From Minisyncoccota bacterium (lineage in GTDB: Bacteria > Patescibacteriota > Microgenomatia > UBA1400 > UBA12028), in assembly GCA_003487265.1 (NCBI GenBank), contig DNEP01000013.1, positions 24,618-88,617 on the forward strand: a stretch of 64,000 nt of DNA, in the 5' to 3' direction. A program made the translations under genes and the position numbers. A model generated the notes under the pieces. It did not search any database. It saw only the letters and a list, made by a program, of their open reading frames with translations, and was not told the DNA's origin. Below, piece after piece: positions 1-7,069 of the stretch. Position 1 is the first letter of the stretch. The number at the start of each line of letters is the position of its first letter.

Positions 1-454
1 TCTTTTCTAAAATTTCTGTATACAAAGCTAATTGAACTGCGTAATGTCTCTTCAGTTTGGGACCATTTTCATCACCATTTTCTTCTGTTCCTTCAAACCC
101 TCTACCACTTTTTACATCTACAGCGATATAGGTGCCATCATCCAAACGGCGTAAAAAATCAGGAATTCCCAATAAATTCTCATGTTGAATGACAGGCTGA
201 TACAAAAGTTGGGCACCATCTTCCAATGCCTCTTTAGTATTAATGATTCGTTCTTGTTGATCTCCAATACTCAAATCAACAAAATCACCCAACCTGCTAA
301 CTGCTTTCTGTTCATGTTGGACACCCTTGTCCCAGAGTAATTGAACAAAAGGATTAGTCTCCTTAATTTTCTCTACCTGAGGACCATAAGCGTCCCGCCA
401 CACTCGATGAGGGCATTGAAGATAGTTATAAAGTTTTGATGCTGTGAGTTGCAT
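1..454 (-). CDS. PD-(D/E)xK superfamily nuclease, RecB/Cas4-like (TM0106-like N-terminus); partial, continues past the window start
   Basis: Not in the ORF track because it is truncated. Manual translation of the minus strand from ATG at 454-452 gives MQLTASKLYNYLQCPHRVWRDAYGPQVEKIKETNPFVQLLWDKGVQHEQKAVSRLGDFVDLSIGDQQERIINTKEALEDGAQLLYQPVIQHENLLGIPDFLRRLDDGTYIAVDVKSGRGFEG...KLKRHYAVQLALYTEILEK with no stop up to base 1. It shows an hPD motif (GIPDFL) and a DxK motif (AVDVKSG), and an N-terminus of the form LYxYLxCPHRVW typical of the TM0106/RecB-family nucleases. The start lies 3 nt after the helicase stop and in the same frame. Confidence 0.5.
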   Translation of the reverse strand, partial: MQLTASKLYNYLQCPHRVWRDAYGPQVEKIKETNPFVQLLWDKGVQHEQKAVSRLGDFVDLSIGDQQERIINTKEALEDGAQLLYQPVIQHENLLGIPDFLRRLDDGTYIAVDVKSGRGFEGTEENGDENGPKLKRHYAVQLALYTEILEK

Positions 455-457
455 ATT

Positions 458-3400
458 TTAACTTTGTGAATTCTCCACTAACCAGTTTCCTTTTTCGCGT
501 CTACCTAGAGATATTTTTCCAATGACTTCCTCATCCTTTATTAGAAAAATAAACCCTGCATAGCGAATTTTCAAGCCTAACCACATCTTCACCTCCATAC
601 ATACCGCCAACTTCTGTTTATCTGGAGATAGGAACGCAGAATCCACCCTGCTGCCTTTCATCTTTAGGATTGTTGAAGATTTTTCTGCGACTACTGCCCA
701 AATCTCCTCCTTGTCAATCGTCCTTCTAATACTCCCTAAAAGGTCAACAAGCGGCTCTAATTGGCTTGGTTTTTTTCTAGTCACATACTCTATGTAAATA
801 GGAAGGCCTGTTAGGTTGCAAACTTTAAGATCATCTGGATGGCATTCCCGATCACTCCAAGAGCACTTTTTAGCTTCTACAGGAGAACAGAAATTACCAT
901 TAACTGATCTAACTGCTTCCTTTTCAAGCAATCGAGCATCAGAAATACTGCTTGATACAAAGTATTTTTTAAGTGCCTTTTTACCTGAAAAGGCTGACTT
1001 CTCCAGCTTTGCTGGCAAAACCCTTTTGTTAGACACCTCACAAGTTTCAAGCAAACCTGGAACAACAATCTTCTTAGTTAACTCACAGGTTTCAGACTCT
1101 GTTGATAACAACGGTTGCCCTGTTTCGGAACAGAAAATAAATTCTTTTTTGTGACCAGTCTTTTTGGAAACCACTGATTGTAATTGTTCATCCTTTCTAT
1201 ATTTCTTTCCTGATATTTGACTAACTTCTAATTCGTCTTCGAGAACTTCTGAATCAGTAAACTCACACCTGCCAAAAAAATTAGGTTCTGCCTGTTTACC
1301 ACTTAATGCAGAAGTTTTAAGTAGCGATTTAGAAACAAGTTCACCAGTAATTGATGACTTTTCAACCTCGTCACTAAGAATCTTTCTCCCAGAAAGAGAA
1401 CAAGTCACGATGTACTGAGGTAGAGCTTTTCTCCCACTCTCCTCAGAACTTACAAGTAGATGACGCAATACTCTGTGTCCACTAATATCACAGATAGCTA
1501 AACAATCATAAGGAACCGTCTTCCCAGTTGATTCACATTTGAATAAATCGGGTGCTTCGATTACCTCTTTTTTAGAAGGTACAATCTGAATTGTACTTTT
1601 GTACTCAAAAGTGGAGTCAATATTGTATGAAACATCCATTTGTATTTGGCGATTCATTGCGCCTGCAAGTCCTACCAAGCTCATTTCAACTCTTGGCGTA
1701 AACTCATCTTCAAGTTTTTTCTTTTTTCGCAAATCACTGCCTGCGGCTGCCACTTCCTGAACCATTCTCTCGTTATAAAAACGACAGAATTCATCTATTC
1801 CCTCATCAAGCATTGCCTTTTCAGCCAACAAGTCTGGGACTACTCCGGTCTCTAACGGTCCATCAATAAGCTCTCCCAATGATTTGAGACTCTTTGGTTT
1901 AATTTCTACTCTATGGTCTTGATCTAAGCATTCAACTTTAACCAAACGTTCATAACTATCATGGGCTACGGTTGAGCGAACTCTCACAAGTGCCATACCT
2001 GAAAAACAATTCCAGACTTTTGTCGTCTCTTTCTTTTTGAAGTCACCACCAAATTTGCTGATCCAGTTCTGAACGGCTTGATGTGTGTCTGATTCAAGAT
2101 CCAAATCTAGATCCTTTACATCATGAAGTCTATTACTGATTACTTTGCTCACTAAACGCTCAAAAGCAGTTGTTCCCTGTGCGTAAAGAACGCCATCTAT
2201 TCGACCATTACTTTTCTCTTCAAAATAAATTGACTCTTTCTCATCGTCAAGTTCACAAAGATATACTCCTTCAGGCTGAGGAGTAAGTTTGGAACCAAAG
2301 TTTTTTTTAGCTGTCAAAACAAAACTGCATATATCCATCGAGCGATCTAGTTTCGGCAAACTCGGACATCTAGGTCCAAATTCGGAAGGATCTCCCATAG
2401 AGCCAAGCATAGAACTTATGTTTATCTGTTCTTCTTCCAATTTAAGTTTGGCTTTCGATATGCTTTCACTTGCTGTTTTTGTTGCCGTCTCAACATCTTT
2501 TCCTGCTAACGAATCAACTACTAACCTCCTCACCATTTCCTCAAAGTCAACTGATCCATTTTCATCCTCATCCAAACCGGACGCCTCAAGCATTGCTTCA
2601 ACATCACCAATTGCCTGTGATGCCATTTGGAGCTTTTCCATAAGCCTAGCAACGATGTATTCCTCAAATGTATTTGACAAGATAATATTGAAAATACTTA
2701 CCTTTGCATGCTCGGAGGCCAACCTCTGAATCCGACCTACCCTTTGTTCAACAATCATTGGATTCCAAGGCAAATCGTAGTTAACTAGCACATTAGCTGC
2801 TTGAAGATTTATACCTTCAGCTCCAGCTTCTGTAGAGACAATTACATGAATGTCCGGAGGTTTTTGTTTGAACTGAGCTATAGTTTCTTGATTTCTTAGC
2901 CCAGAATCACCATTAATTAACCCACAAGTAATGTTCCGTTTCCCCAAAAATTCCTCAATTGTGGTTTGAGTTTCGCGACGGCCAGTAAAAATAACTAATC
3001 TCCAGTCATCAGGTCTTTCAGCTTCAAGTTTATAGATAAGAGTACTAAGACCTTTTAGTTTTGCCGAGTCGCTCATGTTATCAACAACAGCACTAACGTC
3101 CAATGATAATGACTCTGGTATTGTTTTATTACGAGCCATATTTTTTAATTGAGCTGACAAAGCATGAGGACTACTTGTGAGTGCTTGGAGGATTGAGATT
3201 TGTGCTAGACGATTCAGCTTTTGAATTGGCTCAGCAATGATGTCAATTAACTTCAATTCGTCAGGGGTCGGTGTCACCTTGTGAAGCTGTACAGTTCTCT
3301 CAGGAAAATAAAGATTTGCGTCTGCCCGTCTTACCCGCGACATATAACCATAAACAATTGATCGAAACTCATCTTTCATTGATGGCACTAATTGGCGGGC

Positions 3401-4168
3401 TTTTGTCTTGGCATCCGCAATGAATCTGCGGGCAAAAATCCCCGGATTCCCGAAGGGATTTTCGTGCCCTCTTGCAGTAGTCAGTAAGTCAACTAGGGAA
3501 TAAATATCCCACAGCCTATTTTGAATCGGCGTAGCGGTAAGCATGAGGACATATTTAAATAATCGATCCTCTAATGCCTGCTTAAAACGAACCGCCCTTT
3601 TAGGGGGAGGGTCAACACCATACAAATTCCGTAGCTTATGAGCCTCATCTAAAATCAACATTTCGTAACCAACGTCAGAAATTTTTTCGAGATGTAGACG
3701 GGCAGAATCATAAGTGGTTATAACTGCTCCCAATTCTCTTGGTGGAGTAGCTTTGATTAAGTCTCTGCCAGTAGCAATAACGGAAGATATACCAAACTTA
3801 GTTTCCAACTCTTCCATCCATTGAAACATTAATAATTTAGGACAAACAATTAGTATTTTTGTTACTCTGCCACGAGCCATTAATTCACTTATCACCAATC
3901 CAGCACTAATTGTTTTACCTAAACCAACATCATCAGCTAATAAAGTAACGGGCAATCTGCGACAAAATGTAATCAGGTTCGTGACTTGGTGATAATATGG
4001 CTCCAATAACTCACTCCATTTCTTTTCGGAGCGCATATCATCACGGTCTTCAATAACAATTGGCTCTATAAGATCCCACTCAATCCCAGCCACGTACAAA
4101 TTAAATTCATCGCTGTTTTTTGCTCTTTGGAGTAATTTTGTCTGGAGTGGTGGTGAAGAGTTGCTCAT
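458..4168 (-). CDS. SNF2/Rad54-family DEAH-box helicase (ATPase core aa ~55-520) with a ~700-aa uncharacterised C-terminal extension containing degenerate Cys-x-x-[ST]-G repeats
   Basis: ORF track, 1236 aa. Motif I is DDVGLGKTISAG, motif II is LILDEAHKLRN, the Q-motif region is YYHQVTNL, and helicase-C motif VI is QRVGRIQRLASEH. The C-terminal half shows no recognisable catalytic motif. It carries about 10-13 degenerate ~13-aa repeats, for example CDISGHRVL, CSLSGRKIL, CEFTDSEVL, CSETGQPLL, CELTKKIVV, CEVSNKRVL and CNLTGLPIY. Confidence 0.85.
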   Translation of the reverse strand: MSNSSPPLQTKLLQRAKNSDEFNLYVAGIEWDLIEPIVIEDRDDMRSEKKWSELLEPYYHQVTNLITFCRRLPVTLLADDVGLGKTISAGLVISELMARGRVTKILIVCPKLLMFQWMEELETKFGISSVIATGRDLIKATPPRELGAVITTYDSARLHLEKISDVGYEMLILDEAHKLRNLYGVDPPPKRAVRFKQALEDRLFKYVLMLTATPIQNRLWDIYSLVDLLTTARGHENPFGNPGIFARRFIADAKTKARQLVPSMKDEFRSIVYGYMSRVRRADANLYFPERTVQLHKVTPTPDELKLIDIIAEPIQKLNRLAQISILQALTSSPHALSAQLKNMARNKTIPESLSLDVSAVVDNMSDSAKLKGLSTLIYKLEAERPDDWRLVIFTGRRETQTTIEEFLGKRNITCGLINGDSGLRNQETIAQFKQKPPDIHVIVSTEAGAEGINLQAANVLVNYDLPWNPMIVEQRVGRIQRLASEHAKVSIFNIILSNTFEEYIVARLMEKLQMASQAIGDVEAMLEASGLDEDENGSVDFEEMVRRLVVDSLAGKDVETATKTASESISKAKLKLEEEQINISSMLGSMGDPSEFGPRCPSLPKLDRSMDICSFVLTAKKNFGSKLTPQPEGVYLCELDDEKESIYFEEKSNGRIDGVLYAQGTTAFERLVSKVISNRLHDVKDLDLDLESDTHQAVQNWISKFGGDFKKKETTKVWNCFSGMALVRVRSTVAHDSYERLVKVECLDQDHRVEIKPKSLKSLGELIDGPLETGVVPDLLAEKAMLDEGIDEFCRFYNERMVQEVAAAGSDLRKKKKLEDEFTPRVEMSLVGLAGAMNRQIQMDVSYNIDSTFEYKSTIQIVPSKKEVIEAPDLFKCESTGKTVPYDCLAICDISGHRVLRHLLVSSEESGRKALPQYIVTCSLSGRKILSDEVEKSSITGELVSKSLLKTSALSGKQAEPNFFGRCEFTDSEVLEDELEVSQISGKKYRKDEQLQSVVSKKTGHKKEFIFCSETGQPLLSTESETCELTKKIVVPGLLETCEVSNKRVLPAKLEKSAFSGKKALKKYFVSSSISDARLLEKEAVRSVNGNFCSPVEAKKCSWSDRECHPDDLKVCNLTGLPIYIEYVTRKKPSQLEPLVDLLGSIRRTIDKEEIWAVVAEKSSTILKMKGSRVDSAFLSPDKQKLAVCMEVKMWLGLKIRYAGFIFLIKDEEVIGKISLGRREKGNWLVENSQS

Positions 4169-4226: not shown

Positions 4227-5732
4227 TTAAGCTTTACTGTTACTAGAAAGCTCTTCAAATTTTGCAGCCATAGTAGGATTGTTTTTGATTAGCCGTTTTA
4301 CCGACACGTTCTCTACCTTGTTACCGGCAGTAAGCAGATGCTTGTTAGACAGGCGTAAAGCCTCCTTAATGCCCTCCAACTTTTTGATGGTCAGATCAAT
4401 ACCATCCATAGCATCTCGAAACTTGTTACTAGAATCCTTGACGTTCCTCATGAAGCCATCTTGAAAGAGTTGTAAATCATTCTCGAAGTTGGTGACATCT
4501 ATGTCCTTATCACGAACAAGTGCTAACTCAGCCTTATATTTCAACGAGTCTAAAGCACCATTGCGCAACAGGGTTATGATTGGAATGAAAAATTGTGGAC
4601 GAACAACATACATTTTGTCGTATGCATAGGATACATCGGTAATGCCGGCATAGAGTTCGTTGTCTGCCTCAAGTACGCTTACCAAAACTGCATGCTGACA
4701 TTTCTTTTCAATACGATCTCTATCAAGCTTCTTGAAGTAGTCTTCGTTTTTCTTCTTTGCGGCGGTATCGTCAGATTCGTTCTTCATGTCAAACATGATC
4801 GATAAGATTTCGTTGCCTGCCTCATCAATTTCACGATAGATATAATCACCCTTACCGCCGGCACTAGCATCATTGTCTTTTTCAAAGTGCACATTCCTAA
4901 AAGCACCAGCGGATTGCCACTGCCTAAATGCAATCTTGCAGTGCTCCTCAAGGCTTCTACCCAGTAGTTTAACTGACTGCTTGGACTTGAAGTCCTTATA
5001 CTGGGCAATCTGCTCATCTTTGAGCTTTAGTTCAACCTCATGCCTTTCTTTGAGTGAAGACTCTAACGCCTTCTGTTCATGGTCTTTAATTTCCAGCTTA
5101 CTAGCCAGCTCATCGCGTTCTTTTTCGACTACATTAACAGCCTTAGTCACAGCCAACTCTTTTTCTGTTACAGATGACTCAAGCTTTGCACTAAGTTCAT
5201 CTCGTTCTTTTTCTACTTTTGATACAGCTTCAGTAACAGCTAACTTCTTATCAGTGTCCGCAGCTTCCAGCTTGGCTTGGAGTTTAGCAATCTGAGCATT
5301 CTTTTCAACCTCGGCGGACTCAAGTTTTGCCTGTACCCCAGCCATCTCGGTTTCTTTTTCAGCTAGGGTTTTGGCAAGCAAAGCGTCTATTTCCGCCTTC
5401 AATTCGGCTATTTCTGCATCTCTTTTTACAATGTCTACTTGTAACTCACTTTTTATATTTGCCTCAGCAAGTTTAACAGCACTTTCTTTTTCTGCTTTGA
5501 GCGTAGCCAGTTCCTTGTCCTTTTTGACAATGTCTGCCTGCATTAACTTTTCAACATCGACCCTAGCGAGTTTAATCGCATTCTTTTTTTCTTTTTCAGC
5601 CAGTTCTAGTCGTTCGTGGAGTTCTTTATCAAACACATGATCACGGACTTGCTTGAGGATATCGGCAAATCCGGCCTCATCAGCCTTAAAAACCTTTTTG
5701 CATTGTGGGCATATAATATCGTTCATAGTCAT
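4227..5732 (-). CDS. Zinc-ribbon plus long coiled-coil protein, DUF2130-like (tentative); the C-terminal globular domain may be PD-(D/E)xK-like
   Basis: ORF track, 501 aa. The N-terminus MTMNDIICPQCKKVFKADEAGFADILKQVRDHVFDKELHERL matches the characteristic start of the DUF2130 family as I remember it. Residues ~40-240 are heptad-rich coiled coil with internal tandem repeats. The C-terminal ~250 aa is globular, with GDYIYREIDEAGNEILSIMFDMKNE, a possible D...hhhhDxK pattern. Confidence 0.5.
   Translation of the reverse strand: MTMNDIICPQCKKVFKADEAGFADILKQVRDHVFDKELHERLELAEKEKKNAIKLARVDVEKLMQADIVKKDKELATLKAEKESAVKLAEANIKSELQVDIVKRDAEIAELKAEIDALLAKTLAEKETEMAGVQAKLESAEVEKNAQIAKLQAKLEAADTDKKLAVTEAVSKVEKERDELSAKLESSVTEKELAVTKAVNVVEKERDELASKLEIKDHEQKALESSLKERHEVELKLKDEQIAQYKDFKSKQSVKLLGRSLEEHCKIAFRQWQSAGAFRNVHFEKDNDASAGGKGDYIYREIDEAGNEILSIMFDMKNESDDTAAKKKNEDYFKKLDRDRIEKKCQHAVLVSVLEADNELYAGITDVSYAYDKMYVVRPQFFIPIITLLRNGALDSLKYKAELALVRDKDIDVTNFENDLQLFQDGFMRNVKDSSNKFRDAMDGIDLTIKKLEGIKEALRLSNKHLLTAGNKVENVSVKRLIKNNPTMAAKFEELSSNSKA
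5100..5275. repeat. Imperfect tandem duplication (2 x ~87 nt) inside the coiled-coil CDS
   Basis: The DNA units catcgcgttctttttcgactacattaacagccttagtcacagccaactc and catctcgttctttttctacttttgatacagcttcagtaacagctaactt are ~75% identical. They encode the 29-aa repeats KLAVTEAVSKVEKERDELSAKLE and ELAVTKAVNVVEKERDELASKLE. Confidence 0.5.
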
Positions 5733-5764: not shown

Positions 5765-6784
5765 TTACTTTTGTCTTTTCTTTTCTCCTTTGATCAACCG
5801 CTTCACCACTCGGTCAAAATCAGACTCAATTGGCTGGATCTTGTTAAACTCTCTATATTCAGCCAAGGCTTTCTTATCAGCATCATCCTTTGAAACTTTT
5901 CCTTTATCGTCCAAAATTCTGTACTCATTAAACGTCAGGAATTTATTAACACTTTCAGCGAACTCTTCCATGTTGAACGTCTGTCGATTTTCAATCAGAT
6001 TTTCGATGTAATCAAAAAACCCAGTGACAGTTCGTTCAAGTTTTTTAATCTGATCTTCTGGTAAATAATTCTTGGCTACCGTAACATCAGTAGATAAAAT
6101 TCTGCCTGCTGGTGCTTGTTTCCAAGTGGTCAAGCCCATATGGGGTTGGCGACGGTCTGCCCGCTCATCGATCAACTCAGCTGCAGTGTGACCAGTGATG
6201 GCGTAATGGAACTTGTTCTGAACAGTGGCAAAGAAATCTTTAGTCGTTTGGGAGTGAGGATCGTAGTCGATACTACATTCGGCAAAGATATCGGTAATTT
6301 GCTGATAAATACGGCGCTCGCTTGATCGAATCGAACGAACTCTTTCTAGCAACTCACGGAAATAATCCTGACCAAAAACTTTCTCTCCTTGCTTAAGGCG
6401 ATCGTCATTTAGAGCAAAACCCTTGATTATATACTCTCGAAGCACTTGGGTAGCCCAAATGCGGAACTGAGTTGCTCGTCCAGAGTTCACCCGATAACCA
6501 ACAGCAATAATGGCATCAAGGTTATAGAAATTGGTTAGATATTGTTTTCCATCTGTGGCAGTTATCCGGATTTTCCGGACAACTGAATTTTCCTCAAGTT
6601 CTTGCGTTTTGAAAATGTTTTGCAAATGTTCATTAACAGTACGAACATCTACATCAAACAGCTCTGCCATCATTTTCTGAGTCAACCACAATGTTTCGTC
6701 TTGAATAAAAACATCCAGCTTTATATCCCCATTGGGTGAGGTGTAAAGAATAAATGTTGATGTTTGCGTCAGTTCATTCGCCAT
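5765..6784 (-). CDS. RhuM-family protein (Virulence_RhuM; Fic/DOC-associated DNA-binding family)
   Basis: ORF track 5765..6862, trimmed to the internal start MANELTQ at 6784. Family-typical segments are LTQKMMAELFDVDVRTVNEHLQNIF and AIIAVGYRVNSGRATQFRIWATQVLREYIIKGF. The longer 6862 start would overlap a convincing HTH gene in another frame. Confidence 0.7.
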   Translation of the reverse strand: MANELTQTSTFILYTSPNGDIKLDVFIQDETLWLTQKMMAELFDVDVRTVNEHLQNIFKTQELEENSVVRKIRITATDGKQYLTNFYNLDAIIAVGYRVNSGRATQFRIWATQVLREYIIKGFALNDDRLKQGEKVFGQDYFRELLERVRSIRSSERRIYQQITDIFAECSIDYDPHSQTTKDFFATVQNKFHYAITGHTAAELIDERADRRQPHMGLTTWKQAPAGRILSTDVTVAKNYLPEDQIKKLERTVTGFFDYIENLIENRQTFNMEEFAESVNKFLTFNEYRILDDKGKVSKDDADKKALAEYREFNKIQPIESDFDRVVKRLIKGEKKRQK

Positions 6785-6785
6785 A

Positions 6786-6953
6786 TTACTTCTTTTCAAT
6801 AAATCTCCTAATATCCTCAAGACGGTAACGTCTAATTTTTCTCTCACCGATACGTACCGCAACCAAAAGGCCTTTGCGATCCCAAAGACGAAGGGTGTTT
6901 GGGTGGACGCTCAGTATCTCTGCTGCTTCTCTGAGTTTTAACAGTTTTTCCAT
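6786..6953 (-). CDS. Small helix-turn-helix DNA-binding protein, excisionase/MerR-like (HTH_17 type)
   Basis: Not in the ORF track. Manual translation gives MEKLLKLREAAEILSVHPNTLRLWDRKGLLVAVRIGERKIRRYRLEDIRRFIEKK, 55 aa, with a classic Xis/MerR HTH (AAEILSVHPNTLRLWDRKG). Its TAA stop abuts the RhuM ATG (TAATATG). Confidence 0.6.
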   Translation of the reverse strand: MEKLLKLREAAEILSVHPNTLRLWDRKGLLVAVRIGERKIRRYRLEDIRRFIEKK

Positions 6954-7069
6954 ATGTACATCACTTACTAATGAATGACACTAGCATACAAAATCTTGTC
7001 CATTTTATCAATACGATTCCACACCGTTGTTTCTCCACCACCATCTTCCCCTCGTGTTATCATACAGAG

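What the first reader, a model, noticed from the sequence alone, without database searches (positions are those of the whole stretch)
452..460. Helicase stop and nuclease start are one codon apart in the same frame, as if a helicase-nuclease fusion had been split
The SNF2 helicase ends with TAA at 460-458. The nuclease ATG is at 454-452 in the same reading frame (...ENSQS* Y MQLTASKLYNYLQCPH...). Read-through or loss of a single stop would give a helicase-nuclease fusion comparable to single-chain helicase-nuclease defense proteins. Alternatively the arrangement reflects tight translational coupling. It also flags a possible assembly-introduced stop.
Basis: seen in the sequence. Interest (0 to 1): 0.6.

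Follow-up and report, generated by a model that had tools for sequence, protein, structure and literature searches.

The report
Ordinary helicase–nuclease operon junction
The stop of a large SNF2 helicase gene and the start of a Cas4-like nuclease gene are one codon apart in the same frame, but this is a normal tight junction between two separate partner genes, not a broken fusion gene or an assembly error.

Summary
On the minus strand the 1236-aa SNF2 helicase ends with TAA (460-458). One codon follows, AAT (Asn, not Tyr), then the ATG (454-452) of a TM0106/Cas4-like nuclease in the same frame.

The stop is native. Two independent metagenome contigs carry the identical junction. All 80 helicase orthologues examined end at the same conserved C-terminus.

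The same-frame spacing is incidental. In 11 helicase-then-nuclease pairs the spacing ranges from an overlap to 32 nt, and only 2 are in frame. The closest relative has an 11-nt out-of-frame spacer and a different nuclease downstream.

No helicase-then-nuclease fusion was found in 80 loci or 248 family proteins.

The two genes are nevertheless real partners. A TM0106/DUF2779-type nuclease lies within 8 kb in 24 of 80 loci. It is usually adjacent, in either gene order, twice with an ATGA stop/start overlap. In one genome it is fused in the opposite order (nuclease then helicase).

Best reading: a co-transcribed, probably translationally coupled, two-gene helicase–nuclease module in a mobile defence-type island. 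The junction is of low interest. The module itself is uncharacterised.

The parts
458..4168 (-). SNF2-family helicase CDS, 1236 aa including the stop
   Evidence: ORF. Pfam SNF2-rel_dom at residues 75-309 and Helicase_C at 381-483. Walker A (GLGKT) and DEAH (LDEAH) motifs are visible in the translation.
2720..3946 (-). SNF2 ATPase core (residues 75-483)
   Evidence: PADLOC and NCBIfam hits to DrmD, BrxH, HmaA and ZorD are confined to this core and all fall far below the family cut-offs.
461..2491 (-). Family-specific C-terminal extension of about 680 aa, with no Pfam or PADLOC domain
   Evidence: It defines the orthologue family: 103 hits, 589 representatives, 80 loci. The AlphaFold model has mean pLDDT 88. 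The best PDB fold match is RapA at E=0.02.
782..1579 (-). Tandem beta-hairpin repeat array (about 15 units of about 15 aa, motif C/S-x-x-S/T-G-K/R) inside the C-terminal extension
   Evidence: Secondary-structure periodicity in the model. The repeat is visible in the translation. Longer family members give multiple matched stretches.
458..460 (-). Helicase stop codon TAA
   Evidence: Identical in independent contigs L089 and L090. Its position matches the stops of 80 orthologues.
455..457 (-). Three-nucleotide spacer, AAT (would read Asn)
   Evidence: In orthologous pairs the spacer varies: 2, 4, 9, 11, 32, 2, 19 and 5 nt, plus two overlaps.
452..454 (-). Nuclease start codon ATG
   Evidence: It is the first start codon after the in-frame stop. 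Homologue N-termini align at this residue. The nearest GGAG is 18 nt upstream, too far for a canonical Shine-Dalgarno site (read).
1..454 (-). 5' part (151 codons) of a TM0106/COG2251-type Cas4-like nuclease gene, cut by the window edge
   Evidence: TIGR03491 at 3.6e-10 over profile positions 2-138 and Cas4. It is 61% identical to the full-length orthologue in L012, which scores 249.9 bits against the 97.45-bit cut-off and also carries RNase_H_2 PF13482.
20..160 (-). PD-(D/E)XK active-site motifs of the nuclease: D99, D113-V-K115, Q141-x3-Y145. The first Fe-S cysteine, C14, lies at 413-415.
   Evidence: Read from the translation. The columns are conserved among homologues.
4227..5732 (-). Upstream co-directional DUF2130 gene (501 aa; zinc ribbon, coiled coil and DUF2130)
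   Evidence: Pfam 2.4e-71. A DUF2130 gene also lies directly upstream of the helicase in L009 and L028.
5765..6862 (-). RhuM-family gene (PADLOC candidate PDC-S05), the first gene of the co-directional cluster
   Evidence: Pfam 6.4e-107 and PADLOC PDC-S05 1.5e-154.

Best explanation
The helicase and the nuclease are two separate, intact genes in one co-directional cluster: RhuM, DUF2130, SNF2 helicase, TM0106-like nuclease. The helicase stops at its native TAA. Three bases later the nuclease starts at its own conserved ATG. That the two are in the same frame is a 1-in-3 coincidence with no conserved counterpart.

The short spacer, with no Shine-Dalgarno sequence at canonical distance, most likely lets ribosomes that finish the helicase re-initiate on the nuclease (translational coupling). 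This step is inferred.

The two proteins form a recurrent, horizontally mobile helicase-nuclease module. An SNF2 dsDNA translocase with a unique repeat-containing C-terminal extension is paired with a dual nuclease: a Cas4-like PD-(D/E)XK domain plus, in full-length orthologues, a DEDD-type 3'-5' exonuclease domain. The module probably degrades DNA that the helicase engages, most plausibly foreign DNA given the island context. The function is inferred, not shown.
For: The sequence is as described.

The stop is native:
- 80 of 80 orthologues end at the equivalent position. Their C-terminal ends are alike: GWRFIS*, GWIKF*, GWLEN*, GWVQS* against the window's GNWLVENSQS*.
- Two independent contigs have an identical junction.

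The start is native. Homologues begin M-x-[IL]-TASKLY even when they sit behind unrelated genes.

The pair is real:
- An HMM of TM0106/DUF2779 nucleases hits 24 of 80 helicase loci within 8 kb. Eleven are directly downstream on the same strand, about nine directly upstream, and four on the opposite strand or further off.
- The partners are TIGR03491 members (up to 344 bits) or DUF2779 proteins.
- L011 and L039 have an ATGA stop/start overlap. L043 is a single 1758-aa nuclease-helicase ORF with no internal start.

Frame and spacing are not conserved. The relative frames across the 11 pairs are 0,2,1,0,2,2,2,1,1,2,2. The closest relative, L009 (79% aa identity), has an 11-nt out-of-frame spacer.

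No promoter or terminator lies at the junction. Tight packing is the norm in this window.

The context is mobile and defence-like: RhuM/PDC-S05 in the cluster, serine recombinases in 9 loci and tyrosine integrases in 5, and a patchy distribution across many phyla.

The nuclease domain composition agrees with the literature (PMC3985635, PMC13621843).
Against: - Only 24 of 80 helicase loci carry this nuclease, so the helicase often stands alone or has other neighbours. The partnership is facultative.
- The closest relative carries a different nuclease in the same slot, DUF6602 (NucC-like).
- The same nuclease family also lies next to unrelated defence genes: MmeI-like, GmrSD and a type III Res-like gene.
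- The 3' two-thirds of the window's nuclease lies outside the window, so its integrity is unknown. Closely related contigs (L089, L090) carry disrupted copies.
- Translational coupling, physical interaction and a defence role rest on inference only. No expression or read-level data were available.
Confidence: 0.85

Rival explanations
1. The two ORFs are the halves of an ancestral single-chain helicase-nuclease that was split by a nonsense mutation, either a recent pseudogenisation or an evolved split.
For: The frames match and only one codon intervenes. Single-chain SNF2-nuclease defence proteins exist: HmaA (PMC11232893) and ZorD (PADLOC descriptions). One genome fuses these two families (L043).
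Against: No helicase-then-nuclease fusion appears among 80 loci, 103 plus 150 family proteins, or 248 proteins scanned with the nuclease HMM. Every orthologue ends at the same place whether or not a nuclease follows. The nuclease start is conserved behind unrelated genes. Only 2 of 11 pairs are in frame. The one fusion has the opposite domain order, is a singleton, and looks derived from an overlapping nuclease-then-helicase operon of the L011/L039 type.
Confidence: 0.04
2. The TAA is a sequencing or assembly error inside one long gene.
For: None beyond the frame coincidence.
Against: The TAA-AAT-ATG junction is identical in two other assemblies from different projects, and those contigs differ from the window at other positions. 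The stop position is conserved in 80 orthologues.
Confidence: 0.02
3. Programmed stop-codon read-through yields a minor helicase-nuclease fusion in addition to the two separate proteins.
For: The frames match. Read-through would add only two residues between the domains.
Against: The same-frame arrangement is not conserved in orthologous pairs or in the closest relative, so it is not under selection. TAA is the commonest stop in the window. No read-through signal is known or seen here.
Confidence: 0.03
4. The two genes are merely neighbours in a defence island and do not work together. The nuclease gene is a common flank of a hot spot into which different large defence genes are inserted.
For: Close homologues of the nuclease N-terminus lie just downstream of an MmeI-like enzyme, a GmrSD-HNH protein, another helicase and a type III Res-like protein. 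The closest helicase relative has a different downstream gene, with homology breaking right at the start of that gene. 56 of 80 helicase loci lack the nuclease.
Against: The adjacency recurs in distant phyla, in both gene orders, and with two divergent nuclease subfamilies (TM0106 and DUF2779). There are overlapping stop/start codons and one fusion. In the non-cognate contexts examined, the nuclease copies are all truncated or frameshifted remnants, whereas those next to the helicase are mostly full length.
Confidence: 0.08

Closest known systems
Translationally coupled operon junctions (stop and start a few bases apart or overlapping, e.g. ATGA)
   Same: The stop and start are 3 nt apart. Both genes are on the same strand, with no promoter or terminator between them and no Shine-Dalgarno sequence at canonical distance. 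Orthologous pairs show spacings from a stop/start overlap to +32 nt, including ATGA overlaps.
   Different: Coupling was not measured. The in-frame geometry is a coincidence, not a feature of the class.
HmaA of the Hma system (Swi2/Snf2 helicase with a C-terminal PD-(D/E)XK nuclease domain; PMC11232893)
   Same: Both combine an SNF2 ATPase with a PD-(D/E)XK nuclease activity in a defence-island context. The PADLOC HmaA profile hits the ATPase core at 2e-47.
   Different: Here the nuclease is a separate gene of another family (Cas4-like TM0106). The helicase C-terminus is a non-nuclease repeat-containing extension. There are no HmaB or HmaC neighbours.
TM0106 / COG2251 and DUF2779 nucleases (Cas4-like domain plus RNase H-like DEDD exonuclease; PMC3985635, PMC13621843)
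   Same: The window fragment matches the N-terminal Cas4-like part. Full-length orthologues next to the helicase show both domains.
   Different: The literature notes fusions of COG2251 to tandem AAA (SF1 helicase) domains. An association with an SNF2 helicase was not found in the papers searched.
Two-gene helicase plus Cas4-like nuclease pairs (Cas4-like with UvrD-like or YprA-like helicases, PMC5704561; Hachiman HamA/HamB, from my own knowledge)
   Same: Both have a separate Cas4-type nuclease gene next to a large helicase gene, a patchy phyletic distribution and a defence-island context.
   Different: The helicase family differs (SNF2 with a unique C-terminal extension). No PADLOC model other than Cas4 matches the nuclease.
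DISARM DrmD, BREX BrxHI/HII, Zorya ZorD, Dpd DpdE (SNF2 helicases of known defence systems)
   Same: They share the SNF2 ATPase core.
   Different: All scores are far below the family cut-offs: DrmD 197 against 610 bits, DpdE 166 against 500, ZorD 55 against 1500. None of the partner genes of these systems is nearby.

Membership tests
SNF2-family helicase | SNF2-related N-lobe and Helicase_C C-lobe above Pfam gathering scores | tested here: met
   99.7 bits against a cut-off of 24.9, and 66.7 bits against 23.5.
TM0106 family RecB-like nuclease (TIGR03491) | N-terminal Cas4-like PD-(D/E)XK domain with a Cys, D...DxK and QxxxY motifs | tested here: met
   C14, D99, D113-V-K115 and Q141-x3-Y145 are present. 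The match covers profile positions 2-138 at E=3.6e-10.
TM0106 family RecB-like nuclease (TIGR03491) | Whole-protein score above the curated cut-off (97.45 bits) | tested here: inconclusive
   The fragment scores 39.4 bits because only 151 of about 500 residues lie in the window. The 61%-identical orthologue L012 scores 249.9 bits.
TM0106 family RecB-like nuclease (TIGR03491) | C-terminal RNase H-like (PF13482) exonuclease domain | not testable with these tools
   It lies beyond the window start. It is present in orthologues L012, L027 and L076.
   0 of 80 loci and 0 of 248 proteins. The only fusion is L043, in nuclease-then-helicase order, and it is a singleton.
HmaA (Hma system) | PD-(D/E)XK nuclease domain at the C-terminus of the SNF2 protein itself | tested here: not met
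   No nuclease domain was found in residues 560-1236 by Pfam, PADLOC or NCBIfam. The confident model has no nuclease fold hit. The 'PD...EVK' string near the C-terminus is not conserved.
HmaA (Hma system) | Neighbouring HmaB methylase and HmaC ATPase | tested here: not met
   The neighbours are DUF2130 and RhuM.
DISARM DrmD | Score above the NCBIfam equivalog cut-off, with DrmA/B/C/MTase neighbours | tested here: not met
   197 bits against a cut-off of 610. No such neighbours are present.
Zorya ZorD | Score above the cut-off, with ZorABC neighbours | tested here: not met
   54.6 bits against a cut-off of 1500.
Translationally coupled gene pair | Stop and start within a few nucleotides on one transcript | tested here: met
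   The spacer is 3 nt and no terminator or promoter signal lies between the genes.
Translationally coupled gene pair | Downstream translation depends on upstream termination | not testable with these tools
   This needs reporter or ribosome-profiling experiments.

The most novel reading that the evidence does not exclude
The SNF2 helicase with its unique C-terminal extension of about 680 aa (including the beta-hairpin repeat array), together with an exchangeable downstream or upstream nuclease, may be an undescribed, widely transferred two-gene anti-mobile-element system. The nuclease is TM0106-type, DUF2779-type or, in the closest relative, a NucC-like DUF6602 protein. In this reading the nuclease cassette is swapped precisely at the gene boundary, and the very short junction serves stoichiometric co-expression.
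Probability: 0.35. Interest if true: 0.55.

Novelty: new member of a known kind. Interest (0 to 1): 0.22.

Why it matters
The flagged feature, an in-frame stop and start one codon apart, needs no special explanation and should not be annotated as a pseudogene, a frameshift or an assembly error.

What is worth keeping is the by-product. The helicase family is defined by an unannotated but confidently folding C-terminal extension. It is found from Patescibacteria to Bradyrhizobium. It recurs next to Cas4-plus-DEDD dual nucleases in either gene order, and is once fused to one.

No defence-system model in PADLOC or NCBIfam covers this pairing, and none of the papers searched describes it. It is therefore a reasonable candidate for experimental testing as a helicase-nuclease defence or repair module.

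Tried and rejected
- Fusion search, four ways. (i) Nuclease-fragment homologues are all 224 aa or shorter. (ii) Homologues of the helicase C-terminus are all 1236 aa or shorter in the word-indexed search. (iii) An exhaustive representative search gave 589 relatives. The long ones (up to 2098 aa) carry only SNF2 domains by Pfam and appear to be repeat expansions. (iv) The nuclease HMM scanned against all 248 helicase-family proteins gave no hit.
- A query across the L043 fusion junction found no second fused protein.
- The gene upstream of the closest full nuclease homologue (L007) was tested as a possible helicase orthologue. It is unrelated.
- A candidate PD...EVK nuclease motif at the helicase C-terminus was rejected because the Asp is not conserved.
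- The promoter and terminator scan gave nothing above the shuffle expectation at the junction.
- Literature searches for DUF2779, TM0106 and COG2251 found no described link to SNF2 helicases.
Full report
**1. Observation**

Reading the minus strand, a 1236-aa ORF (4168..458) ends ...L-V-E-N-S-Q-S-TAA, with the TAA at 460-458. The codon at 454-452 is ATG and opens an ORF (MQLTASKLYNYLQCPHRVW...) that runs off the start of the window after 151 codons. The coordinates, the same-frame relation and the one-codon spacing are therefore correct.

The large protein is an SNF2-family helicase: SNF2-rel_dom 2.1e-28 and Helicase_C 2.7e-18. It has about 680 further residues that match no Pfam, PADLOC or NCBIfam model. 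The small ORF matches the N-terminal Cas4-like part of the TM0106 family (TIGR03491, 3.6e-10, profile positions 2-138 of 462). It carries the expected motifs: C14, D99, D113-x-K115 and Q141-x3-Y145.

**2. Is the stop real?**

Two independent metagenome contigs contain exactly the same ...AGT TAA AAT ATG CAA... junction: L089 from an ENA assembly and L090 from a JGI metagenome. They differ from the window at a few other positions and then diverge abruptly at different points.

I fetched 80 loci encoding orthologues of the helicase's specific C-terminal extension, from Patescibacteria, Nitrospirota, Acidobacteriota, Alpha- and Gammaproteobacteria, Planctomycetota and others. In all 80 the reading frame closes 0-7 codons (rarely up to about 20) after the position equivalent to the window's last residues. 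The ends are alike: GWRFIS*, GWIKF*, GWLEN*, GWVQS*, and GNWLVENSQS* in the window. The TAA is therefore the native end of the helicase. It is not an assembly artefact or a recent nonsense mutation.

**3. Is the start real?**

The 24 database homologues of the nuclease fragment begin at the same residue, M-x-[IL]-T-A-S-K-L-Y. This holds even where the upstream gene is something else entirely: an MmeI-like enzyme in L001, a GmrSD-HNH protein in L002, another helicase in L005, and a type III Res-like protein in L006-L008. None of these homologues is longer than 224 aa and none is fused to a helicase.

**4. Are the two genes partners?**

Yes, though facultatively. An HMM built from full-length partners and run over six-frame translations of the 80 loci finds a TM0106- or DUF2779-type nuclease within 8 kb in 24 loci:
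- It lies directly downstream on the same strand in L010, L012, L016, L019, L027, L032, L036, L037, L062, L076 and L080.
- It lies directly upstream in L011, L039, L043, L048, L053 and L015, with remnants in L014, L020 and L046.
- It lies on the opposite strand or further away in L042, L049, L058 and L084.

The partners are bona fide TIGR03491 members (up to 344 bits against a cut-off of 97) with a Cas4-like domain and the PF13482 RNase H-like domain. Otherwise they belong to the related DUF2779 type. The literature describes both as a Cas4-like nuclease joined to a DEDD 3'-5' exonuclease (PMC3985635, PMC13621843).

Apart from this nuclease, the neighbourhoods are highly variable. Serine recombinases occur in 9 loci and tyrosine integrases in 5.

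**5. Is the frame or spacing meaningful?**

No. For the 11 helicase-then-nuclease junctions, window included, the spacers are 3, 2, 4, 9, 11, 32, 2, an overlap, 19, 5 and an overlap. The relative frames are 0, 2, 1, 0, 2, 2, 2, 1, 1, 2, 2. Two of 11 are in frame, which is what chance predicts.

In the closest relative (L009, Candidatus Blackburnbacteria, 79% aa identity), the DNA stays about 88% identical through the helicase 3' end, the stop, the spacer and the first few codons of the next gene. Homology then ends. There the spacer is 11 nt and out of frame. The downstream gene is a 221-aa DUF6602 (NucC-like PD-DExK) nuclease instead.

Within the window itself, 34 of 46 co-directional neighbour pairs are 10 nt or less apart or overlap, and TAA is the commonest stop. 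A 3-nt spacer is therefore typical.

**6. Do fusions exist?**

Not in the order proposed.
- No helicase-family protein in the searches exceeds the expected length through a nuclease domain. The longest hit is 1175 aa.
- The longer representatives (up to 2098 aa) show only SNF2 domains and multiple repeat matches.
- None of the 248 family proteins matches the nuclease HMM.

One locus, L043 (a Pyrinomonadaceae MAG), has a single 1758-aa ORF. In it a complete TM0106 nuclease (TIGR03491, 6.2e-62) runs directly into the helicase N-terminus with no stop and no candidate start codon. This is nuclease-then-helicase, the reverse of the window's order.

L043 looks derived from operons such as L011 and L039, where the nuclease stop and the helicase start overlap as ATGA. 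A search with the L043 junction found no second example, so the fusion is a singleton and could even be an assembly error.

It is nonetheless consistent with a functional link. It also matches the known tendency of COG2251 nucleases to be N-terminal fusions to helicase domains (PMC3985635).

**7. Mechanism**

Shown:
- The two ORFs are separate and conserved, each with native ends.
- They are tightly packed, with no promoter or terminator signal between them.
- Their adjacency recurs in both gene orders.

Inferred:
- The four co-directional genes are co-transcribed: RhuM/PDC-S05 (5765-6862), DUF2130 (4227-5732), the helicase and the nuclease.
- Nuclease translation is coupled to helicase termination. 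The nearest GGAG lies 18 nt upstream of the ATG, so an independent Shine-Dalgarno site is unlikely.
- The SNF2 translocase and the dual nuclease act together on DNA, most plausibly foreign DNA. This fits the RhuM/PDC-S05 neighbour, the recombinases in related loci, the patchy cross-phylum distribution and the frequent pseudogenisation: split helicases in L014, L034, L054 and L072, and truncated nucleases in L001, L002, L005-L008, L089 and L090.

**8. The helicase C-terminal extension**

An AlphaFold model built on a 60-sequence alignment is confident (mean pLDDT 88). It shows alpha/beta domains, then about 15 tandem beta-hairpin repeats (period about 15 aa, motif C/S-x-x-S/T-G-K/R), then a small C-terminal beta-sheet domain. 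The best PDB fold match is the SNF2 ATPase RapA at E=0.02, and no nuclease fold appears. A 'PD...EVK' string near the C-terminus is not conserved across the family. This protein is therefore not an HmaA- or ZorD-like helicase with its own nuclease domain.

**9. Comparison with known systems**

Scores against DrmD, DpdE, ZorD, BrxH and HmaA come only from the shared ATPase core and lie far below the curated cut-offs. The partner genes of those systems are absent.

The closest analogies are:
- ordinary translationally coupled operon junctions;
- HmaA, where SNF2 and a PD-(D/E)XK nuclease share one chain (PMC11232893);
- Cas4-like nucleases linked to UvrD-like or YprA-like helicases (PMC5704561).

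The specific pairing of SNF2 with a TM0106/DUF2779 nuclease was not found in PADLOC or in the papers searched.

**10. Verdict**

The split-fusion and artefact interpretations are rejected. The reading as a tight operon with probable translational coupling is accepted.

The junction is ordinary and scores low. The helicase-nuclease module is a plausible uncharacterised defence-type pair and is recorded as the novel reading.

Noticed in passing
window 330-640 compared with L009 9850-10160: The window and its closest relative (helicase 79% aa identity) are about 88% identical in DNA through the helicase 3' end, the stop, the spacer and the first few codons of the next gene. Homology then stops. 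L009 carries a 221-aa DUF6602 (NucC-like PD-DExK) nuclease where the window has the TM0106-like nuclease. The nuclease cassette appears to have been swapped at the gene boundary.
   Followed up: partly
L043 4746-10022: A single 1758-aa ORF in a Pyrinomonadaceae MAG joins a complete TM0106 nuclease to the N-terminus of the helicase orthologue, with no stop and no internal start. It is the only fusion found, and its domain order is the reverse of the window's gene order.
   Followed up: yes
L001 4853-6248; L002 8001-8432; L005 2948-3172; L006 629-1159: Close homologues (54-82% aa identity) of the nuclease N-terminus lie a few bases downstream of unrelated large defence genes: an MmeI-like enzyme, a GmrSD-HNH protein, a split helicase and a type III Res-like protein. 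In all of these contexts the nuclease is truncated or frameshifted, once next to an IS1595 transposase. They look like remnants at a cassette-exchange hot spot.
   Followed up: partly
L089 and L090 compared with window 1-600: Two near-identical contigs from other metagenomes lose homology abruptly inside the nuclease gene, after codon ~126 (L089) and codon ~62 (L090). In L090 the remaining ORF continues into a DUF559 (Vsr-like) segment. L090 also loses homology about 130 nt upstream of the helicase stop, so it holds only a junction remnant.
   Followed up: partly
window 782-1579 (helicase residues ~864-1129): About 15 tandem beta-hairpin repeats (period about 15 aa, motif C/S-x-x-S/T-G-K/R) lie in a confidently modelled C-terminal extension that has no Pfam domain and no PDB fold match. 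Family members up to 2098 aa seem to carry more repeats.
   Followed up: partly
window 4227-5732; L009 4872-6305; L028 2525-3934: A DUF2130 protein (zinc ribbon, long coiled coil and DUF2130) lies directly upstream of the helicase in three loci. The window and L009 copies share only 33% identity over the N-terminal 134 aa, although their helicases are 79% identical. An RmuC-family protein sits downstream of the helicase in L034.
   Followed up: partly
L011 6264-6383 and L039 4561-4680: The DNA at the nuclease/helicase ATGA junction is nearly identical in a Patescibacteria MAG and a Gammaproteobacteria MAG. This points to very recent horizontal transfer or mis-binning. A serine recombinase gene lies next to the module in both.
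   Followed up: no
L014, L034, L054, L072; many P0273-P0392 entries: The helicase gene is often broken into two or three ORFs. Many N-terminal fragments of 170-500 aa occur on long contigs, which suggests frequent pseudogenisation of this family.
   Followed up: no
window 5765-6862: A RhuM-family gene (PADLOC candidate PDC-S05, 1.5e-154) heads the co-directional cluster. The island seems to end at about 6862-6970, where divergently oriented housekeeping-type genes begin.
   Followed up: no
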